From Candidatus Doudnabacteria bacterium (GTDB lineage: Bacteria; Patescibacteriota; Doudnabacteria; UBA920; O2-02-FULL-48-8): a DNA stretch of 64,000 bases. The DNA lies in contig JBBCGO010000001.1 of the NCBI GenBank assembly GCA_037200925.1, forward strand, positions 317,248-381,247, given 5' to 3'. Of this stretch, positions 30,633 through 47,719 are shown in pieces. Every line of letters begins with the position of its first letter. Position 1 is the stretch's first letter. Position numbers and translations under genes: made by a program. The notes beneath the pieces are model-generated. The model saw nothing but the letters and a program-made list of their open reading frames with translations. It was not told where the DNA came from and made no database searches.

Positions 30633-30635
30633 ATA

Positions 30636-31091: not shown

Positions 31092-31109
31092 GTAATGCTT
31101 AATTTGGAT

Positions 31110-31697: not shown

Positions 31698-31698
31698 A

Positions 31699-32340
31699 TT
31701 ATTTTTGTTTAATTTCTAATGTTTTAATTATATTGGTCATATCAATAAGCGCGGTGTTCAAACTTGCGCTGCCCTTCACGGGCAAACTGTTCACGTCCTT
31801 TGAATTATAAGCCATTGTCACTACCAAACCGGGAGGCTGATCATCTGTGTAATAATTGAAGTAGCCATTTCTGCTGTCCGTCAGATAAGAAAAATACCAA
31901 ACAGTAGAACCATTGGTCGGAACATTACAGTAATCTTTTTTGTCAGCAGCGGCAACATACAGATCCGCTCGGGAATAGTCATCAAATGCCGGATTTTTTT
32001 CTGAAGTCCCGCAGGGAGGGCTTGGCTGTTCGGTCACAACAGCATCAGCGCTTGGCGCCCCCATGGCAATTTCCGCAAAACGACCTCCCTCAACACCGCT
32101 GGCTTGTGAAGCCTGAGTGTTAACATAAAGAATATAGTTTCCCTTGGTAATATTGACCGCTGCGGAATTTGAACCGGCCTGAGCGGCTGTCCATCCGGCA
32201 GGGATCGTGATTTTCATGAATTGATTTTCGTAAACCTGGCTCTGTGGCGGCGGAGGTGGAGTAGGCTGAACAGCCGCTTGTTTGTTGCAAGCCGCGGCAA
32301 GTAGCAAAATTCCGATTGTAGCTACAAAAATCTTTTTCAT
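31699..32340 (-). CDS. lipoprotein, hypothetical
   Basis: MKKIFVATIGILLLAAACNKQAAVQP lipobox. The leader is near-identical to those of neighbours 31110-31697 and 36021-36587. Confidence 0.6.
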   Translation of the reverse strand: MKKIFVATIGILLLAAACNKQAAVQPTPPPPPQSQVYENQFMKITIPAGWTAAQAGSNSAAVNITKGNYILYVNTQASQASGVEGGRFAEIAMGAPSADAVVTEQPSPPCGTSEKNPAFDDYSRADLYVAAADKKDYCNVPTNGSTVWYFSYLTDSRNGYFNYYTDDQPPGLVVTMAYNSKDVNSLPVKGSASLNTALIDMTNIIKTLEIKQK

Positions 32341-32344
32341 AAAA

Positions 32345-33175
32345 TTATTTTTCCCGTCTCTTAACTATAAACTTATTAGATTTCTTTTTATCTCGTGTCT
32401 TTACGCCCAAAGCGTGTTTGCCCCACGGGGTTTTCGGGTATTTCAAACCGATAGGATTATGCCCTTCGCCCCCGCCGTGCGGGTGGTCTATCGGGTTCAT
32501 GGCCTTGCCGCGGACCGAAGGCCGGACTCCCATGTGGCGGACTCTCCCTGCCTTGCCGATCCGCACATACATCCAGTCAGTGTTGGAAACCTGTCCGATC
32601 GTGGCGTACGATTTGACCGGTACTTTGCGAAGCTCGCTGGAAGGCAGTTTCAGAGTCGTGTAATCCGGCTCCTGGGCAGCGACGATTGCATATGTTCCGG
32701 CAGATCTGGCGAGCAAGCCTCCCTGCCCGCCCAAAATTTCCACATTATGGACATTAGTGCCGAGGGGGATGTGTTTGAGCATCATGCGGTTTCCCGGCTT
32801 GATCTCCGCGCGTTCGGAAGTCACCAGAACTTCGCCCATCTTTACTCCGTCAGGTGCGAGAATGTACCGTCTTTCGCCGTCGCGGTAAGCCAAAAGGGAA
32901 ATGAACGCCGAACGGCCCGGATCGTATTCCAAAGTTTTGACGATTGCCGGAATATCCATCTTGTCGCGCTTAAAATCTATCAGGCGGTTTATCTGCTTAT
33001 GCCCGCCGCCCTGGTGGCGGATAGTGATCTTACCCTGGTTGTTGCGACCCGCGGTGCGGGCGGCTGATCGCATCAAAGATTTCACGGGTTTGGAATTTTT
33101 GGTCAAAACCGAATAATCCGTCACGGAATGGATGCGGCGGCCGGGTGAAGTTGGTTTGTAAATCTTGATAGCCAT
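32345..33175 (-). CDS. rplB: 50S ribosomal protein L2
   Basis: Canonical L2 (GRNNQGKITIRHQGGGHK...). Confidence 0.9.
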   Translation of the reverse strand: MAIKIYKPTSPGRRIHSVTDYSVLTKNSKPVKSLMRSAARTAGRNNQGKITIRHQGGGHKQINRLIDFKRDKMDIPAIVKTLEYDPGRSAFISLLAYRDGERRYILAPDGVKMGEVLVTSERAEIKPGNRMMLKHIPLGTNVHNVEILGGQGGLLARSAGTYAIVAAQEPDYTTLKLPSSELRKVPVKSYATIGQVSNTDWMYVRIGKAGRVRHMGVRPSVRGKAMNPIDHPHGGGEGHNPIGLKYPKTPWGKHALGVKTRDKKKSNKFIVKRREK

Positions 33176-33176
33176 A

Positions 33177-33599
33177 TTATACTCCTTCGGATAATCCTGC
33201 TATCCGTTCTCCGCTCTTTAAAGTAACTATTGCTTTCTTCCAATCCTGGGTTCTTCCCACTGACTTGCCTTGGCGGCGGTTCTTGCCGGAAACATTTATC
33301 ATATTGACCGCAGAGACATGCACGTCATATACAGCCTCAACCGCTTTTTTGACCTCTATCTTATTGGCGGTCTTGGCTACTTTGAAAACATATCGGCCGA
33401 TGGAGGAAAACTGGTTGGTTTTTTCCGACAAATGATAACGATGCAGAATATGATGCGCACGACCCGTGTTTTCTTTCAAAACAGTCGGCGTTGAATCGGT
33501 CTTTCCTGCAACAGGTTCTTTGACCAAATCCAAAACATTGTCCTCTTTCGGGGCTTTCTTGCTGCCTTGTTTGCTTTTAAATCTGTCTAAGAGCGCCAT
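33177..33599 (-). CDS. rplW: 50S ribosomal protein L23 (with N-terminal extension)
   Basis: L23 core in the canonical position. Confidence 0.8.
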   Translation of the reverse strand: MALLDRFKSKQGSKKAPKEDNVLDLVKEPVAGKTDSTPTVLKENTGRAHHILHRYHLSEKTNQFSSIGRYVFKVAKTANKIEVKKAVEAVYDVHVSAVNMINVSGKNRRQGKSVGRTQDWKKAIVTLKSGERIAGLSEGV

Positions 33600-33603
33600 A
33601 TCA

Positions 33604-34245
33604 TTAAACTTTTAAATACGTTTTCTCAATAATTGGCAACGCATCTTTCAAAACCAATACATCATGCTTCAAAAGATCCAAAACATTCAGCCGATCGGCG
33701 TATAGGACTTTCACATTTTCCAGATTTCGCGCAGCCCGTTCCAGGTCTTTATTATGCGTGGCCAGAACCAGCAAATATTTCTTGCCGAACTCGGCTTTGC
33801 CGGCAACAACCGCCAGTTTTGCCGCCAGTTCTTTCGATTTGGCGGTATTATCAAAACTTTCCACGATAACTAACTTATGCTCATTGACCTTGTCGGTCAA
33901 AACGCTGAACATTGCTTTTCTTTGGGCTGACTTGTTCATTTTCAAGGACCAATTGCGGGCGCTGGTCGGGCCAAAAGTGACTCCGCCGTGCCGCCAAATA
34001 GGCGAACGGACCGAGCCGGCTCTGGCGCGTCCGGTGCCTTTTTGCTTCCACGGCTTTTTGCCGGAACCGGCTACCTCGCCGCGGTTTTTCGTATGGGCGA
34101 TCGACCGGCGGGCGTTATTTCTCTGCGTTCGCACAGCCGAGTGGACCAGATTACCGTCAATTTTTTCAATGCCAAAGATCTTCGGATTCAGGTCCAGTTC
34201 CGTTACTTTTTCGCCTGTTTGGTTGTAGACTGATGTTTTTGCCAT
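33604..34245 (-). CDS. rplD: 50S ribosomal protein L4
   Basis: Canonical L4. Confidence 0.85.
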   Translation of the reverse strand: MAKTSVYNQTGEKVTELDLNPKIFGIEKIDGNLVHSAVRTQRNNARRSIAHTKNRGEVAGSGKKPWKQKGTGRARAGSVRSPIWRHGGVTFGPTSARNWSLKMNKSAQRKAMFSVLTDKVNEHKLVIVESFDNTAKSKELAAKLAVVAGKAEFGKKYLLVLATHNKDLERAARNLENVKVLYADRLNVLDLLKHDVLVLKDALPIIEKTYLKV

Positions 34246-34246
34246 A

Positions 34247-34840
34247 TTAGTTCCTAATCAAATTAGGGCAATCAGTAAACACACCGTCTATCTGAAATTC
34301 TTTAAGCTTTTCAAATCTTTCCCGGTCATTTACTGTCCAGATGAAGATCTTTTTATTCAGCTTTTTCAGATACTCGATCGTGATCCTGTTGCAAAAAAAC
34401 GATTTTGGATGAATGGAATAAAGCTGCAGAGTGCGGTCCAGCTTCGGAATGAGCGGAAGAAGAAAAAAATTCTCTCCCAGTATCAGCCCGAGTTTGATAT
34501 TTTCATCCAAACTTCTGATCTTCTTCAGTATCGACGGATACTTGGAGGAAACCAGAACTTCAGAGGAAAAATTCTTAAGCAATTCTACGAGCTGGGTTTC
34601 AAAACCCGTCTCTTTAACTTCCAGGTTCAGCGCAACCTTCGCGACCCGAAGCAGTTCTTCCAAGGTTGCCGGCTGGTTGTGTTTGTTCAAAAAATTATGG
34701 CACAGAACGATCTGGCCGTCGGAATTGAGGCGCAAGTCGGTTTCAAGCATGTCCACTCCCAGCTCCTGCGCTTTTTGAAAAGAACGGATAGTATTCTCAG
34801 GTTCCAGGCTTGGCGCTCCTCTGTGTCCTATTATTAGCAT
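34247..34840 (-). CDS. glycerophosphodiester phosphodiesterase (GDPD family), inserted between rplC and rplD
   Basis: MLIIGHRGAPSLEPENTIRSFQKAQELGVDMLETDLRLNSDGQIVLCHN - the GDPD catalytic motifs HRG...ENT...E.D. Confidence 0.75.
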   Translation of the reverse strand: MLIIGHRGAPSLEPENTIRSFQKAQELGVDMLETDLRLNSDGQIVLCHNFLNKHNQPATLEELLRVAKVALNLEVKETGFETQLVELLKNFSSEVLVSSKYPSILKKIRSLDENIKLGLILGENFFLLPLIPKLDRTLQLYSIHPKSFFCNRITIEYLKKLNKKIFIWTVNDRERFEKLKEFQIDGVFTDCPNLIRN

Positions 34841-34898
34841 AAATATTGAATTTTGATTTTAGTTTTTAACCTGTCGCGCATGATCGTCAACGTTGTTA

Positions 34899-35504
34899 CT
34901 AACTCTGCGTCTGGATCCTGACTATACCGCCGTTTGCGCCCGGAACCGCTCCTTTCACTGCTATCAGATTTCTCTTGAGGTCCACATCCACGACTTCCAG
35001 ATTGATGACTGTCCGCACGCCGCCCATGCGTCCGGCCATATGCAAACCTTTTCTGACATGCTGGGGAAACCTGCCGCCGATGGCGCCCACGGCTCTCGGA
35101 TGGTCATGGCCGTGGGAAGCCGGCGCGCCTTTGAACCTGTAACGCTTGATCGGTCCTGCAAATCCCCGGCCTTTCATTTCTGCCGTAACTTTCACCTTGT
35201 CGCCGACGGCAAACGCGTCAACTTTTATCTCCTGGCCTTTTTCAAAACTGTCTTTTTCGGAAATTCTGAATTCCGCCAAAGTTTTAAATGCGCCCGCCTC
35301 TTTGCCGTGCCCTAGTTCTGCTTTGTTTGCGTTCTTCTTCTTGCCAAACCCAACCTGCACGGCCTGGTATTTGTCTTTATCCAAGGTTTTGACCTGCACG
35401 ACTTTGACCGGTCCTGCCAAAAGAATGGTTACGGGCACGACCTTGCCGTCTTTCGTGAACATCTGCGACATATTCAGTTTTTCAGCGAGAATGAATTTGG
35501 ACAT
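34899..35504 (-). CDS. rplC: 50S ribosomal protein L3
   Basis: Canonical L3. Confidence 0.9.
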   Translation of the reverse strand: MSKFILAEKLNMSQMFTKDGKVVPVTILLAGPVKVVQVKTLDKDKYQAVQVGFGKKKNANKAELGHGKEAGAFKTLAEFRISEKDSFEKGQEIKVDAFAVGDKVKVTAEMKGRGFAGPIKRYRFKGAPASHGHDHPRAVGAIGGRFPQHVRKGLHMAGRMGGVRTVINLEVVDVDLKRNLIAVKGAVPGANGGIVRIQTQS

Positions 35505-35510
35505 AAATTT

Positions 35511-35563
35511 GGCTTAAAGAAAAACCATTCAGATCCCAGAAAGCTTCAGAAACCTGAATGGTT
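35511..35563 (-). terminator. terminator/attenuator-like hairpin plus U-run between rpsJ and rplC
   Basis: Minus strand: AACCATTCAG-(21 nt)-CTGAATGGTT followed by TTTTCTTT, immediately upstream of the rplC start. Confidence 0.4.
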
Positions 35564-35618
35564 CTTCTTCGTTGGCGATTTCCGGGAGGATCTATCCAAC
35601 ATACACTATTATAATTTT

Positions 35619-35945
35619 TTACATTTTGATCTCTATATCCACTCCTGCCGGCAAATTCAGATTACTTAATGCATCAATTGTTTTCGGCGTAGGAGAAGCA
35701 ATATCTATCAGGCGCTTATGAATGCGCATCTCAAACTGCTCGCGGGCATTCTTATGCACGAAGGTCGAGCGGTTCACGGTATACTTTGTCTTTTCAGTCG
35801 GAAGCGGAACAGGCCCGATGACCGCAGCGCCTGTTCGCTTGGCAGTTTCTACGATCTGCTTCGCGGACTGGTCTATCAGCTTATGGTCATAAGCCCGGAT
35901 CTTGATCCTTATTCTGCCTTTATTCTCGTCAGTATCTTGCGCCAT
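35619..35945 (-). CDS. rpsJ: 30S ribosomal protein S10
   Basis: Canonical S10. Confidence 0.9.
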
Positions 35946-36020
35946 CTGGTTTGTAAATATTACTTAACGCTCTTGTTAAAATACACATTTTCGAAGGGTT
36001 TGTCAACACCGGAAGGGATG

Positions 36021-36587
36021 TTATTTGGTAAATTTAACACTGGCCAGAATATAGTTTAATATTTGATCGTTCGTGGAATTTTTAAATCTGTTATCATAAG
36101 AAATCGCCAAGTAATTGTTAGCTGAAAAAGGAATCGAGATAAGTTGTTCCTTCGCGTCCGAAATACTGGTCGCTTGCTTGCCGCCGACGGTCAATTGCGT
36201 AGGGTTCCCTAATTTGCTTAAATTTCCCGTACCATTACCAACACTAAGCGAAAATATACAAACCGCCGAGGCCAAATTCTGCGGGTCAAAACAAGATTTT
36301 GATTCACTGACCAGCTTTAATCCCGAAACAAAAAGTGGGGATGGCTGCATAATTTCCATTTGTAAGCTTGTCGGATACTTGAACTCAAATCCATATTGCG
36401 CATTGGTATAAGTTTTCCAACCTGCTGTCGGGTCAGTTGTGGGGGCAGGGGCTGGTGCAGGAGTTTGAGTTACCGGCTGCGGGGCGGGAGCGGGCTGAAC
36501 AGCCGCCTGATTGTTGCAAGCCGCGGCGAGGAGCAAAACTGCTGATGTAATTACTAGAATCTTCTTCATAACTTCCAACCTAACCAA
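36021..36587 (-). CDS. lipoprotein, YTN-motif family, inserted between tuf and rpsJ
   Basis: Likely start MKKILVITSAVLLLAAAC at 36569, then GWKTYTNAQYGFEFKYPTSL. Confidence 0.65.
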   Translation of the reverse strand: MVRLEVMKKILVITSAVLLLAAACNNQAAVQPAPAPQPVTQTPAPAPAPTTDPTAGWKTYTNAQYGFEFKYPTSLQMEIMQPSPLFVSGLKLVSESKSCFDPQNLASAVCIFSLSVGNGTGNLSKLGNPTQLTVGGKQATSISDAKEQLISIPFSANNYLAISYDNRFKNSTNDQILNYILASVKFTK

Positions 36588-36627
36588 AGGACTACTTGGG
36601 GTTTCCTCAAGTAGTCCTTTATTTTTT
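36587..36627. terminator. 12-bp perfect hairpin downstream of tuf (bidirectional terminator-like)
   Basis: AAGGACTACTTG-gggtttcct-CAAGTAGTCCTT flanked by A/T runs. Confidence 0.45.
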
Positions 36628-37813
36628 ACTTTGTGATCTTGAGCACTACGCCGGCTCCTACGGTGTGTCCGCCTTCGCGGATGGCGAAACGCATCTTCTC
36701 TTCCATGGCCACGGGTGTGATCAATTTAATTTTTAAGGTAACGGTGTCGCCCGGCATGACCATTTCCTGCCCTGCTGGCAGTTCAACTTCTCCGGTCACG
36801 TCAGTGGTTCGGATATAAAATTGGGGTTTGTAGCCTTTGAAGAAAGGAGTATGACGGCCGCCTTCTTCCTTGGTCAGAATGTAGACTTCAGCGTCAAATT
36901 CAGTGTGAGGGGTCACAGAACCCGGCTTGGCCAAAACTTGTCCGCGTTCAACATCTTCTTTCTTGGTGCCGCGGAGCAAAACCCCGGCATTGTCGCCGGC
37001 CCGGCCTTCTTCCAATTGCTTGTTGAACATTTCAATACCGGTCACAACCGTCTTTGTGGTCGGGCGGATGCCGACGATCTCAATTTCTTCGCCGATCTTG
37101 ACTATGCCGCGTTCAATTCTTCCTGTGACCACAGTGCCGCGTCCTTCAATTGAAAAAATATCTTCTATCGGCATCAGATATGGCTTGTCGGTTTCTCGCA
37201 CCGGTTCAGGGATATAAGTGTCCAATGCTTCTACCAATTTCAGAATTGAAGGCTCGCCGATCTCTGACTGGTCGCCTTCCAACGCTTTGAGCGCGGAACC
37301 GCGGATGATAGGAGTATCTTTTCCCGGAAAGCCGTATTTGGTCAAAAGGTCGCGAATTTCTTCTTCCACCAGATCAAGCAATTCCTTGTCATCCACCATA
37401 TCCACTTTGTTCATATAAACCACGATGTAAGGAACGCCAACCTGCTTGGCAAGCAAAATATGTTCGCGGGTCTGAGGCATGGGACCGTCAGTTGCTGACA
37501 CGACCAAGATCGCGCCGTCCATCTGGGCTGCACCCGTGATCATATTCTTGATGTAATCTGCGTGTCCCGGACAGTCCACGTGCGCATAGTGGCGCTTGTC
37601 TGATTCGTATTCAACGTGCGTGGTGTTGATGGTTATACCGCGCGCCTTTTCTTCCGGTGATTTATCAATATCATCATACGCGCGGGCCTTAGCCTTGCCG
37701 GTTTTGGCCAGCACGTTGGTGATTGCCGCAGTCAATGTAGTCTTGCCATGGTCAACGTGGCCAATGGTGCCGATGTTGATATGCGGTTTGGAACGGTCAA
37801 ATTTCTCTGCCAT
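36626..37813 (-). CDS. tuf: elongation factor Tu
   Basis: [13 protein letters not shown]...DCPGHADY... Confidence 0.95.
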
Positions 37814-37987
37814 ACAAAATAGCCTTATTTTATTAAGGTTTAAGCGCTTATCATTCTGATCCTAAGCCAAGGATCTTTCGACCATGACACTTGGCCAAGT
37901 TCAGGATGAGGGCTCAAAACCTATATTTAATTATAGTCACTTGGAGATTATATAGGATTTGGAGGGCCTTAGCAAGTCCTCCAACCC

Positions 37988-38016
37988 TTGTGGATAAATA
38001 CCCTAAATGATATGCT
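37988..38016 (+). promoter_or_regulatory. candidate sigma70-like promoter for plus-strand islet 1
   Basis: TTGTGG-17 nt-TATGCT upstream of the SD AAGGAGGA and GTG 38040. Weak match. Confidence 0.25.
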
Positions 38017-38039
38017 AGGAAACCATAAGGAGGACGTTT

Positions 38040-38354
38040 GTGATTGATCCTACTGAGGAGACCATCCTGGCGATCACCGTATATTTGAAAAGACAACGCG
38101 CTATCTTTGAAACAATGAGCCAAGGCCTGGATGAAAATGCAAACCTATTCAAGGAAACCCTTGCCCAGATAGATGAGGCCATCGCCCATCTGCAGGCTGG
38201 CGCTTTTTCTCGGACAATCAGTCTATTAGAGGAACAACGTCACATTACCTCGAAGATAAATTTAAACACGATCGAAAAAGATGAGGTCAACAGAGTAGTG
38301 TTTAAACTGCTGGACGAATGGCTCAGAGTTCTTAAAAAACAGATCCAGTCATAA
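38040..38354 (+). CDS. hypothetical protein (104 aa), islet 1 gene 1
   Basis: GTG start 10 nt after AAGGAGGA; helical; no recognisable domain. Confidence 0.5.
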   Translation: MIDPTEETILAITVYLKRQRAIFETMSQGLDENANLFKETLAQIDEAIAHLQAGAFSRTISLLEEQRHITSKINLNTIEKDEVNRVVFKLLDEWLRVLKKQIQS

Positions 38355-38395
38355 GCTAAGTTTCTGGAATAATCGGGTCAAAAAGGAGGGCTTAA

Positions 38396-38788
38396 TTGCC
38401 CAAGAACATACGACCGCGGGTGAACCGGCTGGCCCGAAACAAGCAAGACGACAAACTTAGCTTTGTGATCAAAGAGGTCGAAGAATATGTGAGAGCCAGG
38501 ATCAAGTTGCATACAAAGGCAGCTCGGCGAAAAGGCGATAAGCTCTTGGCTCAAATTTTTCTGGTCCAAGACAAAAATGCCCTGAAATATTTGAACACGG
38601 GGCATCTGCCGAAAGTAGTTCAATTCCTGGCCGACGAACAGGAACTGTGCCGGGAGTTGGCCAAGAGCGCCCGCGAGGTAATGAAAGAGTTGCCGCGAGC
38701 CCAGCTCCTGGTACAAATCCGTGAGGCCCAGATCGAAGCTGAAATGGTCGGTCAGTGGATCAAGGTTCTTTCCAAACAACAGCGATGA
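38396..38788 (+). CDS. hypothetical protein (130 aa), islet 1 gene 2
   Basis: TTG start after AAAGGAGGG; basic helical protein. Confidence 0.5.
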   Translation: MPKNIRPRVNRLARNKQDDKLSFVIKEVEEYVRARIKLHTKAARRKGDKLLAQIFLVQDKNALKYLNTGHLPKVVQFLADEQELCRELAKSAREVMKELPRAQLLVQIREAQIEAEMVGQWIKVLSKQQR

Positions 38789-38890
38789 TCTGCCAAGATC
38801 AGCTGCCCCGCCCGCCCAAGCTAAATGCTGCTGCGGGTTCTTTTTTTATACAAAAAAATGATATACTGGAGGCCAAACAAGGAGGAGGAT

Positions 38891-39337
38891 GTGAAATACA
38901 TGATAGGACTCTTCCGAAGACTGCGTGCTTTGATGCCCGGCAGAAAAGACTGGTATCTAGGAACTTGGGGGCCTGATGTTTGCAAAGGTACGTGGAACTT
39001 TGACAACGGACGAGCCGTAATATTCGAACTTACTCCGCTCATATCCGTGGCTCGCTACCATACCCAAAGGGAAGCCGAGGATATAGCGTTGTATCTCAAT
39101 CAGGTAAATTTTTGCATTGTGCGGCCGGACAAAAGCATCTACGACGCGCCTGTGAGGATGCTGACCCTTTCGCCTGAAAACGACAGGTGGAACAAAATGG
39201 CTCTGGGCATCGCAGACAAGAAAACGCACGCTTGGCCGTTTGATTCCATCATAGGAGGACCGAATGAAGATCGAGCTCAACCTTTCGATAAGGGTGACGC
39301 AACAAATCCAAACGCTTCCTCTGATCAGGCGGTTTAG
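38891..39337 (+). CDS. hypothetical protein (about 148 aa), islet 1 gene 3
   Basis: Track ORF 38825-39337 trimmed to the GTG at 38891 (or ATG at 38900) preceded by AAGGAGGAGG. Overlaps the next gene by 74 nt. Confidence 0.45.
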   Translation: MKYMIGLFRRLRALMPGRKDWYLGTWGPDVCKGTWNFDNGRAVIFELTPLISVARYHTQREAEDIALYLNQVNFCIVRPDKSIYDAPVRMLTLSPENDRWNKMALGIADKKTHAWPFDSIIGGPNEDRAQPFDKGDATNPNASSDQAV

Positions 39338-39554
39338 GAAAAAGATCGAGATCGACCTGCCCGAGGGAGCCACGGTCGCGGATGTGAAGCTCGGACCAAA
39401 CAACGAGATCCGCGTCTCAATAAATGCCGATGGGATTGTCAACGAAGCCAGTTTCTGGAAGCTGGATCTTGATTGGCAACCGAACGGTCTGGCTTACACC
39501 AAGCAGATGGCACGGCCTATTGATCCGGAAGCCTGGCGCGCGGCCGTGGACTAA
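39264..39554 (+). CDS. hypothetical protein (96 aa), islet 1 gene 4
   Basis: ATG preceded by TAGGAGGA. Confidence 0.5.
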   Translation: MKIELNLSIRVTQQIQTLPLIRRFRKKIEIDLPEGATVADVKLGPNNEIRVSINADGIVNEASFWKLDLDWQPNGLAYTKQMARPIDPEAWRAAVD

Positions 39555-39572
39555 TGATTATCCGGAGGAGAC

Positions 39573-39791
39573 ATGAACAGACTGACCCGCTCAGAACGCT
39601 CAATCGGTCTGCGGCAGGCTCAACAGTCGAACCCGGAGCATTTCGCCGCCAAGTTCGAACTCGAACAGAACTATCGCAAAAAAGTCAGGAACGGTAAGCT
39701 GGTTCTGCTTGCGATCGTTGTTGTGGTTGTCTGGTGGCCTGATATCTTCAGATCAATAAGCCGGATCATGCACATGGTCGCTCGCAACTGA
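39573..39791 (+). CDS. hypothetical small membrane protein (72 aa), islet 1 gene 5
   Basis: SD GGAGGAG; one TM helix LVLLAIVVVVVWW. Confidence 0.45.
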   Translation: MNRLTRSERSIGLRQAQQSNPEHFAAKFELEQNYRKKVRNGKLVLLAIVVVVVWWPDIFRSISRIMHMVARN

Positions 39792-39817
39792 CGACCTGCC
39801 GCGAGGAGGAAAACTCC

Positions 39818-39955
39818 GTGTACTACCCGTCCCGATTCGACCGCTTCATCGTGCGCTTGGCCTACTGGGCCGGATGGCTCACTGATGTGGACAAAGAACT
39901 GGTGCAAGCCTTTCTGAACTCGCCCAGACACCCGCCCAAACTCACGCCAAAGTGA
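39818..39955 (+). CDS. hypothetical small protein (45 aa), islet 1 gene 6
   Basis: GTG 39818 preceded by GAGGAGGA at 8 nt; VYYPSRFDRFIVRLAYWAGWLTDVDKELVQAF... Confidence 0.3.
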   Translation: MYYPSRFDRFIVRLAYWAGWLTDVDKELVQAFLNSPRHPPKLTPK

Positions 39956-40002
39956 ATTTGGGTCTTTTTTTTGCTCATGACTTTGCTGCTGAGCATTATC
40001 TG

Positions 40003-40036
40003 GAACAAAAAACCGCCTTTCGGCGGTTTTAAAATT
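40003..40036. terminator. bidirectional intrinsic terminator shared by islet 1 (+) and fusA (-)
   Basis: AAAAAACCGCC-tttc-GGCGGTTTTAAAATTTT. Confidence 0.65.
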
Positions 40037-40042: not shown

Positions 40043-42175
40043 TTACTTACCTACCTGCCCGACTCTTATCTTTCCTGCTTCGCCGATGATCTTTTCTGAC
40101 ACGTGCTTCGGCACTTCTTCGTATTTGAGAAATTCCATGGTATAAGAAGCCTGGCCCTGCGACATGGACCTGATCTGCGTGGCGTAGCCGAACATTTCGG
40201 CCAATGGCACTTCCGCATCCACGACTTTGATGTTGCCGCGCTCGGTCATTTCCAGGATCTTGCCCCGCTTGGCGTTGAGGTCTCCGATGACATCGCCCAA
40301 AGATGATTCCGGGGTCAGCACTTCCACTTTCATAATAGGTTCCAAAAGAATTGGCTGGGCTTTTTTCACGGCATCCTGGAAAGCCATGGAGCCGGCGATC
40401 TTGAAAGCTATTTCGGATGAGTCAACTTCATGGTAGCTTCCATCGTAGAGAGTGGTTTTTACATTCAGCACCGGGAAACCCGCGATGACGCCGCGGTCTT
40501 CCGCTTCTTCTATTCCTTTTTCCACCGGCTTGATGTATTCCTTGGGGATCGTTCCGCCTACGACCTCGTTAACAAACTCGTTGCCTTTTGTCGGGTCATC
40601 CTGAGGCTCAATGCGGATGTAAACATGCCCGTATTGGCCGCGGCCGCCGGTCTGTCGGATGTATTTGCCTTCCGCTTCGGATTTTCCTTTGATAGTTTCT
40701 TTGTATGCGACCTGGGGACGGCCGACATTGGCTTCAACTTTAAATTCCCGCTTCATGCGGTCCACAATGATTTCCAGATGCAGTTCGCCCATGCCGGAGA
40801 TCAGGGTCTGATTGGTTTCTTCATCTGAGCGGATCCTGAAGGTCGGGTCTTCCTCGGCCAGTTTCTGCATGGCCAGGCCCATTTTCTCCTGGTCCTGCTT
40901 GGTCTTAGGTTCAATAGCCACCGAAATGACCGGTTCAGGGAATTTGATGCGCTCCAGTAAAATCGGATGATCGGCATCGCAAAGTGTATCGCCTGTGAAT
41001 GTGTCTTTCGGCCCCACTAAGGCTGCGATGTCGCCGGAAAAAACTTCTTTCACTTCTTCGCGCGAATCGGCATGCAGGCGGACCAGTCGGCCCACGCGTT
41101 CTTTGTTGCCTGACCGGGCATTGAGAATATACGAGCCGGTCTGCAGGGTCCCGGTGTAAACGCGGAAGAATGCCAATTTTCCCACGAACGGGTCAGTGGC
41201 TATTTTAAATGCCAAAGCTACGAACTTGTCCGAATCTTTCGGGGTCAATAAAATCTCTTCTTTGGTCTTCAGATTCGTGGCTTTGATCGGCGGCTTGTCC
41301 AGAGGAGACGGCAGATAATTCACCACGGCATCCAAAATACTGGTTACTATCAACCCGCGGCCATCACCGCCCAGAACCGGATAGAATTTTCCGGTCAAAG
41401 TGCTAAGCCTTATCGCTCTTACTAATTCTTCATCGCTGATCTCGGTTCCCGCCAGATACTTTTCCATCAAGGCATCGTCCGCCTCCACAACTTTTTCCAT
41501 AAGTTTCAAACGATATTCTTTGCACTTGGCCAGCATGTCAGCAGGCACTTCGCCTTCCACAAAACCTTTGTCTTTAAAATCTGTATAAGTATAAGACTTC
41601 ATTTTTACCAGATCCACGATACCGACGATGTCTTTTTCAAAACCGATCGGCAGCTGGATAGGATATGCGTTCGGGGACAGCCGCTTATGGATCGCATCCA
41701 AGGATTTATAAAAATCTCCGCCGGTTTGGTTGATCTTGTTTATAAAACACATGCGGGGCACCGAATATTTATCTGCCTGGCGCCACACAGTTTCGGATTG
41801 CGGTTCCACTCCCATTTTCCCGTCAAACACCACGACCGCGCCGTCCAGCACACGCAAAGAACGCTCCACTTCCACCGTAAAGTCTACGTGGCCCGGAGTA
41901 TCAATGATATTTATGCGGTGCGTATCTTCGGCCTTGCCGCCACTATGCAAACTTGGAGACCAAAAAGCCGTAGTGGCTGCAGCCGTGATCGTAATGCCGC
42001 GCTCGCGCTCCTGTTCCATCCAGTCCATGGCTGTGTTGCCTTCGTGCACTTCGCCTATCTTGTGGATCTTTCCCGTGTAAAACAAAATCGCCTCGGTAGT
42101 GGTGGTCTTACCGGCGTCAATGTGGGCAATTATCCCGATATTGCGTGTCTGTTCTAATGAATACTCACGTGGCAT
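40043..42175 (-). CDS. fusA: elongation factor G
   Basis: [12 protein letters not shown]..., 710 aa. Confidence 0.95.
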
Positions 42176-42179
42176 TTAT

Positions 42180-42665
42180 TTACCTTCGTTGGAATCTTGC
42201 AAAATGAGCGAAGGCTTTGTTCGCTTCCGCCATCTTATGCACGTCTTCGCGCTTTTTGATGGCTGCGCCCTGCTTGTTGTAGGCTTCCATCAATTCCGTG
42301 GCCAGTTTTTCGGCCATGGGCTTTCCTTTTTTGGCGCGGGCCGCATCAATCACCCATTTCATGCCGAGCGTGGTTTTGCGCGGCTCCTGCACTTCCATCG
42401 GCACCTGATAATTGGCTCCGCCGATGCGGCGGCCCTTGACTTCAACCATCGGCGACACGTTGCGGATAGCCTGCTCAAAAACAGTTTTCGGATCCGCCTT
42501 CATATCAGTTTCAATTTTATCCATCGCGCCGTAAACCACTTTTGAAGCCACGGTCTTTTTGCCGCGGGTCATGACATAGTTAATGAACTTCGCGATCTTC
42601 ACGCTATTGTATTTGTTATCCGCCGTGACCGGATGTTTTTTATAGCTTCTTGCTTTCCTAGGCAT
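42180..42665 (-). CDS. rpsG: 30S ribosomal protein S7
   Basis: Start trimmed to MPRKARSYKKHP. Confidence 0.9.
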   Translation of the reverse strand: MPRKARSYKKHPVTADNKYNSVKIAKFINYVMTRGKKTVASKVVYGAMDKIETDMKADPKTVFEQAIRNVSPMVEVKGRRIGGANYQVPMEVQEPRKTTLGMKWVIDAARAKKGKPMAEKLATELMEAYNKQGAAIKKREDVHKMAEANKAFAHFARFQRR

Positions 42666-42666
42666 A

Positions 42667-43083
42667 CTATTCGGTCCTCTTCGCTCCGTACTTTGACCGG
42701 CCTTGCTTGCGGCCTTCCACTCCGGAGGCATCCAGTTTTCCGCGGACAATGTGATATCGAACGCCTGGTAAATCCTTCACGCGGCCGCCGCGGATCATGA
42801 CCACTGAGTGCTCCTGCAAATTATGGCCGATACCCGGGATATAGGCCGTGACTTCCATGCCGTTTGATAATCTAACGCGCGCGATCTTCCGCAAAGCCGA
42901 GTTTGGCTTTTTCGGCGTGGTGGTGGTGACTTTGATGCAAACTCCGCGCTTAAAAGGCGAACCCTTTGGCAAAGAATAAGGACTCCCTTGGAGCAGGTTA
43001 AAGCCGCGGTCCAGGGCCGGGGTTTTGGATTTATAAACTGATTTGGTTCGTCCTTTCCGGACAAGTTGATTTACTGTAGGCAT
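42667..43083 (-). CDS. rpsL: 30S ribosomal protein S12 (with approximately 13-aa insertion after ...SKTPAL)
   Basis: [12 protein letters not shown]...[16 protein letters not shown]...; the extra segment is [17 protein letters not shown]. Confidence 0.9.
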
Positions 43084-43340: not shown

Positions 43341-43369
43341 TTGACAAACTAAACATTTTATGCTAAAAT
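43341..43369 (+). promoter_or_regulatory. sigma70-type promoter for islet 2
   Basis: TTGACA-17 nt-TAAAAT. Confidence 0.55.
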
Positions 43370-43432
43370 AATAAGTTGGCAATACTGTCAACCTGTGATG
43401 TGCACAGCGATGTGTGCTTAGAGGAGAACAGT

Positions 43433-43603
43433 GTGGCGAAACCAAGTAAGAAAAAGGTCTGGACGAATCGAGAGATCTTTGAAGCCGCTCAATTCAAGGC
43501 TCTCAAAGTTCTAGATAAATCGCGCCGGCAAAAACTGAGGCCCGATCCGATCGACGATGAGCCTCAACTGAGTCTCGGCCTCGGTATCCATCTCAAGCGT
43601 TAG
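43433..43603 (+). CDS. hypothetical small basic protein (56 aa), islet 2
   Basis: GTG start 6 nt after GAGGAG; VAKPSKKKVWTNREIFEAAQFKALKVL...; stop lies 4 nt before the next gene. Confidence 0.4.
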   Translation: MAKPSKKKVWTNREIFEAAQFKALKVLDKSRRQKLRPDPIDDEPQLSLGLGIHLKR

Positions 43604-43607
43604 GAGA

Positions 43608-43925
43608 ATGATGGCTGCCAAACGGATCGAGAACTACAAACTTGGGAACATAGCGAACTTCGACAGATTGAAAAACACAGGCATTATCACACCCGAGATT
43701 GACGGTTGCAAACTGCAGTTCAGTTTCGAGAGTATCGCCCAACCGAGATTTGAAAACGGCATCATCGTCTGCCGTGGTCTAGTGCAGCCGATAAATCACA
43801 GGCGACCCAGGATCGGAGAGCAGATTCTCTATCTGACATCAGGCAATCGGCGCCCGGAGGTCATATCCTGGATAACCCTCACCGACGTCGGCAAGCTTGT
43901 CTGGCAAGAGGGGGCAACATCATAG
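43608..43925 (+). CDS. hypothetical protein (105 aa), islet 2
   Basis: SD AGGAGA; no recognisable domain. Confidence 0.45.
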   Translation: MMAAKRIENYKLGNIANFDRLKNTGIITPEIDGCKLQFSFESIAQPRFENGIIVCRGLVQPINHRRPRIGEQILYLTSGNRRPEVISWITLTDVGKLVWQEGATS

Positions 43926-44036
43926 TATAACGTTCGCAGAAATTGGCAAGATCGCCTGGGAGAAGTCTTGCGGACAATACAACATGGCAACTCGCAATAA
44001 CGAGTAGCTGACAGGAGGATGAACGAAAACTACAAA

Positions 44037-44076
44037 GGCGAGTTTGCATTAATGCAAACTCGCCTATTCTTTTTGT
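44037..44076 (+). terminator. intrinsic terminator
   Basis: GGCGAGTTTGCA-ttaa-TGCAAACTCGCC followed by TATTCTTTTTGT. Confidence 0.7.
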
Positions 44077-44092
44077 TCGAAAATTTGCGGCA

Positions 44093-44121
44093 TTGACGGG
44101 AACGAAAAAAAATGATAGAAA
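44093..44121 (+). promoter_or_regulatory. candidate promoter
   Basis: TTGACG-17 nt-TAGAAA. Confidence 0.35.
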
Positions 44122-44169
44122 AAATGCATTGTTCTCATCTAGCCATTTTCAACTGACCAAGGGGGGAAA

Positions 44170-44655
44170 ATGTCAGGGCAACCGAAACTTGCGGACGGCA
44201 TTGAGCATGGCAAAGTGAAATTCTTCACCAGCACCGGAGGCAGGAACTTCGGGTTCATCACACGCATCGGCAAACCTGATCTCCACTTCCATCACGACTT
44301 AGGTACTGCTTGGACATGCGTTAACGGCGAATTCTGTTTCGCAGGCAGGCACTGCAATCTGCCGAGCAGATTTGCCAAGCAGCATGACGATATCTATTTT
44401 ATCGAAGGCCGGACCAAGAAAGGCCCGACCGCCGCTCCCTGGGCCCTTGGCGAGGACCTCGATCGGTTGATCAAAGCGCGAAGCAGAAACACGGTCACCA
44501 ACACCGGCACAGAGGCCATCCGTCGGCCGCGCGAGCCCGTGACCTCAGAAGACCGTTTCGAAACCGGCGACGACTTTGTCGATCGGATCGATCGAATAGA
44601 AGGTCGCAGAGCCACGGACAGGATGTTGTCGCGAATGCTTCACGATGATGACTGA
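44170..44655 (+). CDS. cold-shock-domain-like protein with charged C-terminal extension (161 aa)
   Basis: GKVKFFTSTGGRNFGFI...DLHFHHD...IYFIEGRTKKGPTAAPWAL resembles the CSD pattern (GxVKWFNxxKGFGFI...VHF...GP.A.NV). Confidence 0.45.
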   Translation: MSGQPKLADGIEHGKVKFFTSTGGRNFGFITRIGKPDLHFHHDLGTAWTCVNGEFCFAGRHCNLPSRFAKQHDDIYFIEGRTKKGPTAAPWALGEDLDRLIKARSRNTVTNTGTEAIRRPREPVTSEDRFETGDDFVDRIDRIEGRRATDRMLSRMLHDDD

Positions 44656-44685
44656 ATCGGCAACGATTTGGAAGATAAAAAACAA

Positions 44686-44726
44686 AGGCGCCCGGTCATA
44701 AAAGACCCGGACGCCTCTTCTTTTTG
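44686..44726 (+). terminator. intrinsic terminator
   Basis: AGGCGCCCGG-tcataaaaga-CCCGGACGCCT followed by CTTCTTTTT. Confidence 0.55.
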
Positions 44727-44729
44727 CCA

Positions 44730-44758
44730 TTGACTTATAGCTCCAATAAGTCTAGAAT
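44730..44758 (+). promoter_or_regulatory. sigma70-type promoter
   Basis: TTGACT-17 nt-TAGAAT. Confidence 0.5.
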
Positions 44759-44783
44759 TATCTCCTCACAACAGGAGGATGAA

Positions 44784-45335
44784 ATGTACAAGGCTGGTAC
44801 GATCACGCTTGTCGCGCCAAGCCTTGGAACGGCTTTGGCAGTCAATGGCGGAGAAAAATGGCTTGTTCAGCAGAACCGCAGAGGTCAGTTTATACAAGGA
44901 CTGGAACAACCCGAACTGACTGAATCTTCGGCGGAAACTAGGCAACGTCTGCCGATACGGTCTGAGGTCATTTATTTCATTGAGGATGAGAATGACCCTG
45001 CTGCGGTAAAGCTGTGGGCCACAAAACAGGACTACCTGGACATAGAAGAAATCATTCGGCAGCGAAAAGAATCAGACCAGCAGAAAGAAGAAATGGCGTC
45101 TCGGCCCAAGATCCGTGTCATGGAGCAACTCATCGAGCGAGGTATCCTGATCGGTGAGGCGAAACCGGTCATAAACGAAATATTCCTTGATGACTTTCTC
45201 AGGCAATATTCGATCATCAGACGCCACGATACGTTCGCTACATCAGGCGATTTTTATCAAACCCGCAAACGCTGGTTTGAACAACTAACGCCGGAAGGCT
45301 GGGTTCAAACTCCGGACCCGCGCCGGAAGTTATAA
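44784..45335 (+). CDS. hypothetical protein (183 aa), islet 2
   Basis: ATG preceded by AGGAGG; MYKAGTITLVAPSLGTALAVNGGEKW...; no recognisable domain. Confidence 0.45.
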   Translation: MYKAGTITLVAPSLGTALAVNGGEKWLVQQNRRGQFIQGLEQPELTESSAETRQRLPIRSEVIYFIEDENDPAAVKLWATKQDYLDIEEIIRQRKESDQQKEEMASRPKIRVMEQLIERGILIGEAKPVINEIFLDDFLRQYSIIRRHDTFATSGDFYQTRKRWFEQLTPEGWVQTPDPRRKL

Positions 45336-45337
45336 CA

Positions 45338-45376
45338 CGGCGAGTTTGCGCAGCGCGCTAGCTCGCCTCTTTTTTA
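45338..45376. terminator. GC-rich hairpin plus T8; its 5' arm matches the terminator at 44037
   Basis: GGCGAGTTTGCgcagcgcgctagCTCGCC followed by TCTTTTTT. Confidence 0.55.
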
Positions 45377-46030
45377 TTAAAAACCCAGCGGCGCGTTGGG
45401 ACCCAGCAAAAATTTCAGGAAAAAAACCAGCGGCGGCAGAACTATGCTTTGCAAAACACCTGTATACAGCAATATGGCCAAAACCGCGAACAGCCAAATG
45501 CCAAACCGCTCCAAGGATAAAATAGCGTACATCCATGCTTCATTAAAATAACCTAAAATGCTCGCTAAAACTTTGGAACCGTCCAGAGGCGGAACCGGGA
45601 TGAGATTAAAAAAACAAAGCACTAAATTCAAGCTCACGGTTTCTATCAGCAGATCTTGCCCCATTGCGGAAATATTCGGCACCAGCCTGAAAACTGCGGC
45701 CGCCAAAATTGCCAGCAAAAAATTCGTAGCTACGCCCGCAATTGCGACCAAAAACATATCACGCTTAAGATTTTTGAAATTCCTGTAATCCACCGGCACC
45801 GGCTTGGCCGCACCGAACACGAACATACCGTGAGTGGCCCAAAACAAAAATAGAGGCAGTAAAATTGAGCCGAACGGATCTATGTGCGGTATGGGATTAA
45901 GGGTCAGCCGTCCTGCTTCACGCGCAGTCGGGTCCCCCAGTTTTTCCGCCACCAAACCATGCGCGACTTCATGAAAGATCACGGAGAACAGCAAGATCAA
46001 AATAAATATGATGATCGAGATCGGGTCCAT
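45377..46030 (-). CDS. M50-family (site-2 protease-like) membrane metalloprotease
   Basis: HEVAHGLVAEKLGDPTAREAGRLTLNPIPHIDPFG. Confidence 0.8.
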   Translation of the reverse strand: MDPISIIIFILILLFSVIFHEVAHGLVAEKLGDPTAREAGRLTLNPIPHIDPFGSILLPLFLFWATHGMFVFGAAKPVPVDYRNFKNLKRDMFLVAIAGVATNFLLAILAAAVFRLVPNISAMGQDLLIETVSLNLVLCFFNLIPVPPLDGSKVLASILGYFNEAWMYAILSLERFGIWLFAVLAILLYTGVLQSIVLPPLVFFLKFLLGPNAPLGF

Positions 46031-47705: not shown

Positions 47706-47719
47706 CAAACGCAAAAAAC

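What the first reader, a model, noticed from the sequence alone, without database searches (positions are those of the whole stretch)
37880..40036. Opposite-strand islet of six small unannotatable ORFs wedged between fusA and tuf
The str operon (rpsL-rpsG-fusA-tuf) is among the most conserved gene orders in bacteria. Here fusA and tuf are separated by 2.2 kb carrying six co-directional plus-strand ORFs of 45-148 aa. Every one is preceded by a strong AGGAGG-type Shine-Dalgarno, and the islet's base composition is visibly GC-richer than the flanks. None of the six has a domain I can recognise. One is a single-TM peptide and two overlap by 74 nt. The islet has its own upstream promoter-like hexamers, a 7-bp hairpin (TTGGAGG...CCTCCAA) and a 10-bp palindrome (CTTGGCCAAG) in the leader. 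It ends at a bidirectional terminator shared with fusA. The layout is that of a horizontally acquired cassette. It could be a defence or toxin-antitoxin-like module, a phage remnant or a lineage-specific system. That makes it the best candidate here for an undescribed system.
Basis: partly seen in the sequence, partly recalled or inferred. Interest (0 to 1): 0.75.

Follow-up and report, generated by a model that had tools for sequence, protein, structure and literature searches.

The report
Orphan small-gene cassette splitting fusA and tuf
A 2.2-kb block of five or six small genes with no relatives in any database searched sits backwards between two translation-factor genes of a tiny uncultured bacterium; it is real and looks acquired, perhaps from a phage, but its function is unknown and such insertions at this spot prove common in this bacterial group.

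Summary
The ORFs are real. All six plus-strand frames beat the five alternative frames in codon log-odds, and each has a GGAGG-type Shine-Dalgarno 4-8 nt from its start. GenBank annotates four of them as hypothetical proteins (Candidatus Doudnabacteria MAG GCA_037975565.1). A fifth, ORF3, is unannotated. It shares a 17-20 aa motif, L.LSPENDRWNKMALGI.D, with two phage contigs, and the DNA differences there are synonymous.

No ORF has a detectable family or homologue in any library or collection I searched (listed in the full report). "GC-richer than the flanks" is wrong: 0.494 against 0.508-0.509. The hairpin and palindrome fit a minus-strand tuf promoter and 5'UTR better than an islet leader.

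New findings:
- Neighbouring housekeeping genes lack Shine-Dalgarno sequences, so the islet's are atypical for this genome.
- The islet looks like two units, each with an AATGATATRCTRG extended -10 element, separated by an internal terminator.
- In Patescibacteria the fusA-tuf spacer is usually occupied, so the interruption is not exceptional.

Best reading: an acquired, possibly phage-derived cassette of unknown function. There is no support for a toxin-antitoxin or defence system.

The parts
37947..37975 (-). Best sigma-70-like promoter in the spacer (TTGCTA-17-TATAAT, 10/12). It faces tuf and is inferred to be the tuf promoter now that tuf is cut off from fusA.
37814..37945 (-). Predicted structured tuf 5'UTR.
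   Evidence: z -2.3; inference from the promoter position
37959..37984 (.). Inverted repeat TTGGAGG-N12-CCTCCAA. It brackets the -35 hexamer of the minus-strand promoter and is not above chance expectation.
38006..38018 (+). P1: 13-mer AATGATATGCTAG (extended -10, TGnTATGCT), 22 nt upstream of the ORF1 start.
   Evidence: only two copies in 64 kb, both in the islet
38040..38354 (+). ORF1, 104 aa, GTG start, SD AAGGAGG. Helical by composition. Annotated in GenBank as WDN47_02110, hypothetical protein.
38396..38788 (+). ORF2, 130 aa, TTG start, SD AAGGAGG. Confident four-helix-bundle model. Annotated as WDN47_02115.
38810..38848 (+). Internal terminator-like G+C hairpin followed by UUCUUUUUUU, directly after the ORF2 stop.
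   Evidence: z -3.06; 0 of 200 shuffles fold as well
38857..38869 (+). P2: 13-mer AATGATATACTGG (extended -10), 22 nt upstream of the ORF3 GTG.
38891..39337 (+). ORF3, 148 aa, GTG start (alternative ATG at 38900), SD AAGGAGGAGG. Not annotated in GenBank.
39158..39220 (+). Region of ORF3 (aa 90-110) encoding the motif L.LSPENDRWNKMALGI.D. The motif is shared with two IMG/VR phage contigs, and the DNA differences there are synonymous.
39264..39554 (+). ORF4, 96 aa, ATG start, SD AGGAGG. Overlaps ORF3 by 74 nt in the +1 frame. Annotated as WDN47_02120.
39573..39791 (+). ORF5, 72 aa, single hydrophobic span at about residues 43-58, basic N-terminus. Annotated as WDN47_02125.
39818..39955 (+). ORF6, 45 aa, GTG start, SD AGGAGG. 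The least certain ORF: codon score about 0, and it is not called by gene callers.
40009..40030 (.). Bidirectional intrinsic terminator (AAAACCGCC-UUUC-GGCGGUUUU) shared by the islet and fusA.
   Evidence: minus strand z -4.8

Best explanation
The fusA-tuf spacer of this Candidatus Doudnabacteria genome holds a species-restricted accessory cassette of five or six small orphan proteins. It was most likely acquired from a mobile or phage source rather than evolved as part of the translation operon.

Inferred organisation: two plus-strand transcription units.
- Unit 1: P1, then ORF1, ORF2 and an internal terminator.
- Unit 2: P2, then ORF3, ORF4, ORF5, possibly ORF6, and the bidirectional terminator.
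- Each unit starts from the same extended -10 element and has a short leader. Every ORF initiates at a canonical Shine-Dalgarno site.

Inferred consequence for the host: rpsL-rpsG-fusA transcription stops at the shared terminator, and tuf runs from its own promoter at 37975-37947.

Shown directly: coding signal, Shine-Dalgarno sites, both terminators, absence of homologues, the phage-shared motif, and the ORF2 four-helix-bundle model.

Inferred only: the promoters, the two-unit organisation, the foreign origin, and any function. My best guess at function is small proteins that bind host or phage partners. ORF3 would dock through its conserved linear motif, and ORF5 would sit in the membrane.
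For: - Coding signal: the proposed frame is the best of six in all six ORFs. Four are annotated genes.
- ORF3: 15 invariant positions in the three-way alignment, including an unbroken run of 11 (NDRWNKMALGI), and 17 of 20 identical to the L084 phage ORF. DNA differences are synonymous, including AGG/CGC for Arg.
- The motif was found nowhere else in 2.9 M viral contigs. Two JGI metagenome scans and a 5.8-billion-protein search with ORF3 found nothing.
- Shine-Dalgarno contrast: GGAGG precedes 6 of 6 islet ORFs. It precedes none of the 25 gene-caller starts of neighbouring housekeeping genes and none of 62 longest-ORF starts.
- The window holds 18 GGAGG-led ORFs of at least 30 aa, against 11 +/- 3.5 simulated. 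Six of them lie in this 2.2 kb.
- The 13-mer AATGATATRCTRG occurs only twice in 64 kb, each copy 22 nt from the ORF1 or ORF3 start.
- A terminator-like hairpin follows ORF2, and the end terminator is bidirectional.
- Orphan status.
- The same islet, 100% identical, is present in the three other assemblies that could be read, and a fourth lists the same genes.
- It is absent from all 80 loci fetched from other species.
- The spacer carries varied cargo across Patescibacteria, including an HNH homing endonuclease and a Bro-N protein.
Against: - No compositional sign of transfer: GC and tetranucleotide content equal those of fusA and tuf.
- No integrase, no flanking repeats and no nearby tRNA.
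- No PHROG family below E 1e-3.
- The phage link rests on one short motif in two high-GC contigs that are unlikely to infect this host.
- The promoters are consensus matches only, and the 13-mer was defined after seeing the two copies.
- The genome scan for relatives was truncated at 600 pattern matches. Closer relatives carrying the islet may have been missed.
- There are no expression data.
Confidence: 0.45

Rival explanations
1. These are native, fast-evolving or de novo lineage-specific small proteins of the host with no mobile origin. They occupy a spacer that is permissive in this phylum.
For: - Composition is indistinguishable from the flanks.
- There are no mobility genes or repeats.
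- Many genes in this window have no family, and several interrupt the ribosomal cluster.
- Other GGAGG-led ORFs without a Pfam family occur elsewhere in the window (44784-45335 and 59444-59908). Shine-Dalgarno use may therefore mark a native class of accessory genes.
Against: - The ORF3 motif is otherwise found only in phage contigs.
- Initiation signals and start codons differ sharply from neighbouring core genes.
- ORF3, ORF5 and ORF6 sit at the bottom of the host codon-score range.
- The islet is absent from the closest available relatives, L004 and L007. Those carry same-strand genes instead.
Confidence: 0.3
2. It is a toxin-antitoxin or anti-phage defence module. For example, ORF5 would be a small membrane toxin with neighbouring regulators.
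For: - The genes are small, tightly packed and partly overlapping, and one is a single-pass membrane peptide.
- The location is a variable spacer.
- ORF2 gives a weak PADLOC match to the C-terminal helical part of RT_UG13b (E 0.0015, 15.7 bits).
Against: - No toxin, antitoxin or defence family matches in Pfam, NCBIfam or PADLOC at significant E-values.
- The RT_UG13b match lacks any reverse-transcriptase domain and lies in helix-rich sequence.
- No DNA-binding antitoxin-type domain was found.
- Six ORFs in two units does not fit the usual two-gene layout.
Confidence: 0.08
3. The cassette is functionally tied to its neighbours. Its small proteins or divergent transcription would modulate tuf expression or act on EF-Tu, EF-G or the ribosome.
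For: - The minus-strand tuf promoter and the plus-strand P1 are back to back within about 60 bp.
- An inverted repeat brackets the tuf -35 hexamer.
- The cassette sits between two translation GTPase genes.
Against: - Other Patescibacteria carry unrelated cargo in the same spacer, so position does not imply function.
- The inverted repeat is not above chance.
- No similarity to any translation factor or regulator was found.
Confidence: 0.07
4. Most or all of the ORFs are chance open frames in a non-coding spacer.
For: - ORF3 and ORF6 are not called by gene callers. In one assembly a different frame is called at 38785-38976, and in two others a minus-strand 48-aa ORF overlaps ORF6.
- ORF3, ORF5 and ORF6 have marginal codon scores.
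- There are no homologues with which to show conservation.
Against: - All six proposed frames beat their five alternatives.
- All six have correctly spaced Shine-Dalgarno sites in a genome where these are rare.
- The ORF3 motif is conserved at the protein level through synonymous DNA changes.
- The competing called frames score worse: -0.15 and -0.07.
Confidence: 0.05

Closest known systems
Occupied fusA-tuf spacers of other Patescibacteria
   Same: The same chromosomal position is interrupted. Spacers of 0.4-7 kb carry lineage-specific genes, sometimes on the opposite strand and sometimes mobile-element genes such as an HNH homing endonuclease or a Bro-N protein.
   Different: None of those genes is related to the six ORFs. 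The commonest occupant is a same-strand Phd/YefM-like protein with an acidic '...FYLEPVE' tail, found in 19 loci including the closest relatives. It is absent here.
Phage 'morons' (an autonomous promoter-gene-terminator cassette added to a phage or prophage genome; from general knowledge)
   Same: Small genes with their own promoter-like elements and terminators. They are inserted between two unrelated transcription units, and their expression signals differ from those of the neighbours.
   Different: The cassette is not inside a recognisable prophage. Its base composition is not distinct. Its promoters are only predicted.
Multigene insertions separating concatenated translation operons in Gammaproteobacteria (Brandis et al. 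2019, PMC6735719, abstract)
   Same: Conserved operons of the translation machinery become separated by inserted genes in particular lineages.
   Different: That work describes insertions between operons. Here the insertion lies inside the classical str operon, between fusA and tuf, and on the opposite strand.
Small four-helix-bundle proteins of the 'S23 ribosomal / 23S rRNA intervening-sequence' and Avd type (PDB 2rld_A, 8ube_D)
   Same: ORF2 is a roughly 130-aa up-down four-helix bundle. 2rld_A is the top Foldseek PDB hit (TM 0.49-0.53), and Avd of a diversity-generating retroelement also appears (TM 0.46-0.52).

Membership tests
Type II toxin-antitoxin module | A toxin of a recognised fold or family (RelE/ParE, MazF, PIN, HipA, Doc and others) | tested here: not met
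   No Pfam, NCBIfam or PADLOC family at a significant E-value for any of the six ORFs.
Type II toxin-antitoxin module | An adjacent antitoxin with a DNA-binding domain (RHH, HTH, AbrB, Phd/YefM) | tested here: not met
   No such domain was found. A profile of the Phd/YefM-like family seen in other CPR spacers finds nothing in the window.
Known anti-phage defence systems (PADLOC-DB 2.0) | At least one signature protein matching a system model | tested here: not met
   The only match is ORF2 against the C-terminal helical part of RT_UG13b (E 0.0015, 15.7 bits), with no reverse-transcriptase domain.
Prophage or prophage remnant | Integrase or recombinase, attachment-site repeats, tRNA adjacency | tested here: not met
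   No large ORF or recombinase lies in or next to the islet. No flanking direct repeats were found. The nearest tRNA is more than 8 kb away.
Prophage or prophage remnant | Genes belonging to phage protein families | tested here: inconclusive
   No PHROG family below E 1e-3 (best is ORF1 against phrog_2114, E 0.0011). ORF3 shares a 17-20 aa motif with ORFs of two IMG/VR contigs.
Moron-like autonomous cassette | Own promoter and own terminator | tested here: inconclusive
   Terminators are well supported. Promoters are consensus-level only: a repeated extended -10 13-mer. No transcription data.
Moron-like autonomous cassette | Base composition distinct from its surroundings | tested here: not met
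   GC is 0.494 against 0.508-0.509. The tetranucleotide z-score is 1.5, equal to that of fusA.
23S rRNA IVS / Avd four-helix-bundle family (PF05635) | Sequence-profile match to the family | tested here: not met
   hmmscan of ORF1 and ORF2 against Pfam at E up to 1 shows no such hit.
23S rRNA IVS / Avd four-helix-bundle family (PF05635) | Four-helix-bundle fold superimposable on family members | tested here: inconclusive
str operon (rpsL-rpsG-fusA-tuf) | Gene order and co-orientation of the four genes | tested here: met
   All four lie on the minus strand in the canonical order (Pfam labels).
str operon (rpsL-rpsG-fusA-tuf) | Co-transcription of tuf with fusA | not testable with these tools
   The sequence predicts separation: a terminator at 40009-40030, 2.2 kb of opposite-strand genes, and a promoter-like site at 37975-37947. 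RNA data are needed.

The most novel reading that the evidence does not exclude
The cassette is an undescribed phage-derived module. Its products would engage a conserved host machine through the linear motif L.LSPENDRWNKMALGI.D, which is shared by otherwise unrelated modular phage proteins. Its translation would be selectively controlled by Shine-Dalgarno pairing in a genome whose core genes initiate without it.
Probability: 0.1. Interest if true: 0.6.

Novelty: new member of a known kind. Interest (0 to 1): 0.33.

Why it matters
If the reading is right, three things follow.

- The classical str operon is routinely broken in Patescibacteria, and the fusA-tuf junction is a tolerated landing site for accessory DNA. 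That matters for anyone using gene order in ribosomal clusters to check bins or infer operons.
- The islet gives a clean within-genome contrast: canonical Shine-Dalgarno sites on accessory orphan genes, none on neighbouring core genes. This could be used to flag acquired genes in such genomes. It also bears on the report that some Parcubacteria lack the anti-Shine-Dalgarno motif (PMC9297842).
- It adds one unannotated gene (ORF3) and one short conserved peptide motif shared with phage proteins.

None of this establishes a new biological system.

Tried and rejected
- **Concatenated query.** I joined all six proteins into one query for the 5.8-billion-protein search. It saturated the candidate list and did not even recover the proteins themselves, so the search was wasted.
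- **Viral and metagenome scans.** Viral-contig scans with ORF1 and ORF4 found nothing. Metagenome scans with ORF3 and ORF1 found nothing.
- **Full HMMER search with ORF4.** Against 1.84 billion representatives it returned only itself and three long repeat proteins. Their E-values come from summing 4-12 repeat matches, so I rejected them as artefacts.
- **GenBank phages and the literature.** A tblastn of ORF3, and of the two motif-bearing phage ORFs, against GenBank phages found nothing over the motif. A literature search for the motif string returned 0 papers.
- **ORF3 structure.** The single-sequence AlphaFold model has pLDDT 36 and is unusable.
- **ORF1-ORF2 paralogy.** A co-linear 22% alignment scores z 3.2 against shuffles. 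That is not significant after testing 55 pairs.
- **Mobile-element boundaries.** I looked for repeats linking the islet to the second opposite-strand block upstream of rpsL. None were found.
- **Rfam.** No RNA family matches in the islet.
- **Strains lacking the islet.** Exact-protein look-ups of S10 and EF-Tu found only the same assemblies. Two further look-ups were wasted on wrong coordinates.
- **Programmed frameshift joining ORF3 and ORF4.** I considered and rejected this. ORF4 is in the +1 frame and has its own optimally spaced Shine-Dalgarno site and ATG.
Full report
**Source and layout**

The window is part of contig JBBCBH010000057.1 (964 kb) of MAG GCA_037975565.1, named Candidatus Doudnabacteria bacterium by NCBI. 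On the minus strand lie rpsL (42667-43083), rpsG, fusA (40043-42175), tuf (36626-37813), a lipoprotein-like gene, rpsJ and the S10 cluster.

| ORF | Coordinates | Length | Start codon |
|---|---|---|---|
| ORF1 | 38040-38354 | 104 aa | GTG |
| ORF2 | 38396-38788 | 130 aa | TTG |
| ORF3 | 38891-39337 | 148 aa | GTG |
| ORF4 | 39264-39554 | 96 aa | ATG |
| ORF5 | 39573-39791 | 72 aa | ATG |
| ORF6 | 39818-39955 | 45 aa | GTG |

ORF3 and ORF4 overlap by 74 nt.

**Are the ORFs real?**

I built a codon log-odds model from 42 long genes of the window. In all six ORFs it ranks the proposed frame first among the six frames.
- ORF1 (0.22), ORF2 (0.14) and ORF4 (0.12) fall inside the gene range. That range has mean 0.23, sd 0.09 and minimum 0.04.
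- ORF3 (0.05), ORF5 (0.02) and ORF6 (0.00) sit at its lower edge. They are still well above the alternative-frame mean of -0.50.

PGAP annotates ORF1, ORF2, ORF4 and ORF5 as hypothetical proteins WDN47_02110, 02115, 02120 and 02125. ORF3 and ORF6 are not annotated. Gene callers instead placed a 63-aa ORF in another frame, or a 48-aa minus-strand ORF. Both score worse in my model.

ORF3 is rescued by comparative evidence. Residues 90-110 (MLTLSPENDRWNKMALGIADK) match ORFs of two IMG/VR contigs, L084 and L085. In the three-way alignment 15 positions are invariant, including an unbroken run of 11 (NDRWNKMALGI), and 17 of 20 residues are identical to the L084 ORF. At the DNA level the differences are third-position changes and AGG/CGC arginine changes, so they are synonymous. 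This frame has therefore been under protein-level selection.

An exact 8-mer seed hit is expected by chance in a collection of this size. Nine further identities in the 12 flanking positions are not. ORF6 remains the weakest call.

**Shine-Dalgarno sites**

Every islet ORF has a GGAGG core 4-8 nt from its start: AAGGAGG three times, AGGAGG twice, GGAGG once.
- Among 25 neighbouring housekeeping genes, using gene-caller starts, none has GGAGG in the 20 nt upstream. These include the ribosomal proteins, EF-Tu and EF-G. Only rplB has AGGAG.
- With longest-ORF starts the count is 0 of 62. Alternative internal starts could raise it to a few at most.
- Across the window there are 18 GGAGG-led ORFs of at least 30 aa, against 11 +/- 3.5 in Markov simulations. 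Six of the 18 lie in this 2.2 kb.
- Two other GGAGG-led ORFs (44784-45335 and 59444-59908) also have no Pfam family.
- Four of the six islet ORFs start with GTG or TTG, whereas host genes start almost always with ATG.

A published survey reports that the anti-Shine-Dalgarno motif is often undetected in part of the Parcubacteria (PMC9297842). I could not read this genome's 16S rRNA.

**Composition**

The claim that the islet is GC-richer than its flanks fails. The islet is 0.494, tuf 0.509 and fusA 0.508, and the window mean is 0.472. The first 700 bp of the islet are only 0.43. The tetranucleotide distance of the islet from the window average is z 1.5, the same as for fusA.

**Regulatory signals**

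The terminator at 40009-40030 has an A-run upstream and a U-run downstream and folds well on both strands (minus strand z -4.8). The bidirectional-terminator claim therefore holds.

The strongest sigma-70 match in the 226-bp tuf-ORF1 spacer is on the minus strand: TTGCTA-17-TATAAT at 37975-37947, 10/12.
- It faces tuf, which needs its own promoter once fusA transcription terminates.
- The 10-bp palindrome lies in a long hairpin of the predicted tuf 5'UTR (z -2.3).
- By my estimate, about 0.2 chance occurrences of each are expected in this spacer, so neither element is above chance.

- A 13-mer, AATGATATRCTRG, containing an extended -10 (TGnTATxCT). It occurs only twice in 64 kb even with one mismatch allowed, at 38006 and 38857. 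Each copy lies 22 nt upstream of the ORF1 or ORF3 start codon. I defined the pattern after seeing the two copies, so the informative points are the 11/13 identity in the same register and the absence of any third copy.
- A G+C-rich hairpin followed by UUCUUUUUUU directly after ORF2, at 38810-38848 (z -3.06).

Together these suggest two units: P1-ORF1-ORF2-T1 and P2-ORF3-ORF4-ORF5-(ORF6)-T2. This is an inference from the sequence.

**Homology and structure**

No significant family was found in any of the four libraries:

| Library | Best match | E-value |
|---|---|---|
| Pfam | ORF1 against Peptidase_M41 | 0.022 |
| PHROGs | ORF1 against phrog_2114 | 0.0011 |
| PADLOC | ORF2 against the C-terminal helical part of RT_UG13b | 0.0015 |
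| NCBIfam | ORF1 against a V-type ATP synthase subunit H model | 0.0059 |

Large-database searches were also empty.
- ORF2 finds only itself among 5.8 billion proteins.
- ORF4 finds only itself among 1.84 billion cluster representatives, plus three repeat-protein artefacts.
- ORF3 finds nothing in the protein collection.
- All four annotated proteins are singleton clusters.
- PDB sequence searches show only coiled-coil noise.

**The phage motif**

In both phage ORFs the motif lies in proline-rich linker sequence between unrelated domains. One ORF has a C-terminal deoxyribosyltransferase-like domain. By eye, the other has a DUF551-like C-terminus. Degenerate-pattern and alignment-based scans of 2.9 million viral contigs find no further copy. 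The motif behaves like a portable short linear motif. Its partner is unknown.

**Comparative context**

The same islet is 100% identical at the DNA level in the GenBank contig itself and in Logan assemblies of SRR28211699 and SRR10968259. GCA_015689235.1 lists the same genes in the same order, but its DNA could not be read. These give no divergence to analyse.

An EF-G-anchored scan of species-representative genomes returned 80 loci. The closest have only 73% EF-G identity. None of the six ORFs has a tblastn match in those loci.

The fusA-tuf spacer differs sharply between groups (my classification from record titles and shared genes):
- Non-CPR loci (16): 23-246 bp in all.
- Patescibacteria-type loci (46): more than 400 bp in 34, and more than 1 kb in 20.

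The content of the CPR spacers is heterogeneous. A Phd/YefM-like protein with an acidic tail occurs in 19 loci, including the nearest relatives L004 and L007. Other spacers carry:
- an amylase-family enzyme;
- a ThrE exporter;
- flavoproteins;
- an asparaginase;
- a glutamine amidotransferase;
- a Bro-N protein;
- an HNH homing endonuclease.

Several of these lie on the opposite strand.

The window's own ribosomal cluster is also interrupted in three places:
- a GDPD gene;
- a DUF5818 gene plus two unknown genes;
- a lipoprotein-like gene.

An interrupted fusA-tuf junction is therefore ordinary in this phylum. What is particular here is the content.

**Interpretation**

The best-supported account is a species-restricted accessory cassette of orphan small proteins, probably acquired from a mobile or phage source. 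It has its own expression signals, and it has severed tuf from the str operon.

Evidence for acquisition:
- the Shine-Dalgarno and start-codon contrast with core genes;
- low codon scores for half the ORFs;
- the phage-shared motif;
- absence from the nearest relatives.

Evidence against:
- unremarkable base composition;
- no mobility genes, repeats or tRNA.

The main rival is a set of native fast-evolving genes. A toxin-antitoxin or defence role has no positive evidence. Function remains unknown. My working guess is small binding proteins: a four-helix bundle, a motif-bearing protein and a membrane peptide.

**Verdict**

The feature is real. It is modestly interesting and is not shown to be a new system.

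Noticed in passing
window 20000-36000 and 40043-43083 (minus-strand genes) versus 38040-39955, 44784-45335 and 59444-59908: Core genes (ribosomal proteins, EF-Tu, EF-G) lack Shine-Dalgarno sequences. 0 of 25 gene-caller starts have GGAGG upstream. The GGAGG-led ORFs in the window are all without a Pfam family. This suggests two translation-initiation regimes in one genome.
   Followed up: partly
L004 12741-13097, L007 12233-12604 and 17 further loci (for example L028 3896-4318, L068 2641-3234): A conserved Patescibacteria protein lies directly upstream of tuf on the same strand. Its N-terminus resembles Phd/YefM and it has an acidic tail ending '...(F)YLEPVE'. Pfam finds no family for the member tested. 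It is absent from the window.
   Followed up: partly
window 43341-45378: A second opposite-strand block lies just upstream of rpsL. It has a near-consensus promoter (TTGACA-17-TAAAAT, 43341-43369) and four ORFs without a Pfam family. A perfect 30-bp palindrome with a T-run sits at 44036-44065, and a related terminator stem (GGCGAGTTTGC...) at 45340-45378. No viral-contig relatives were found for the two largest ORFs.
   Followed up: partly
window 30636-32340, 34247-34840, 36021-36587: Non-ribosomal same-strand genes interrupt the S10 ribosomal-protein cluster. A DUF5818 protein and two unknown proteins lie between rpsS and rplB. A glycerophosphodiester phosphodiesterase lies between rplD and rplC. 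A lipoprotein-like protein lies between tuf and rpsJ.
   Followed up: partly
window 47718-47854 (-): An FMN riboswitch (Rfam RF00050, 105.6 bits) lies upstream of an EamA-family transporter gene (46744-47733). It sits next to flavokinase-like and nucleotidyltransferase-like genes.
   Followed up: no
window 38276-38303: In the Logan assembly of SRR28211699, two contigs end and start inside ORF1 with a 28-nt overlap. This may reflect a branch in the assembly graph (strain heterogeneity at the islet) or low coverage.
   Followed up: no
window 42667-42749: The S12 ORF (stop at 42667) overlaps the called S7 start (42731) by about 65 nt. The exact S12 product is not on record in the gene collection although its neighbours are. 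S12 also carries an internal insertion compared with the typical sequence (my reading).
   Followed up: no
L084 4575-5576; L085 4539-5537: The two phage ORFs carrying the ORF3 motif are modular. Each has a Cys-rich N-terminal part, a linker with the motif, and then unrelated C-terminal domains: deoxyribosyltransferase-like in L084, and DUF551-like by eye in L085. Both contigs are high-GC and carry GIY-YIG or HNH nuclease genes nearby.
   Followed up: partly
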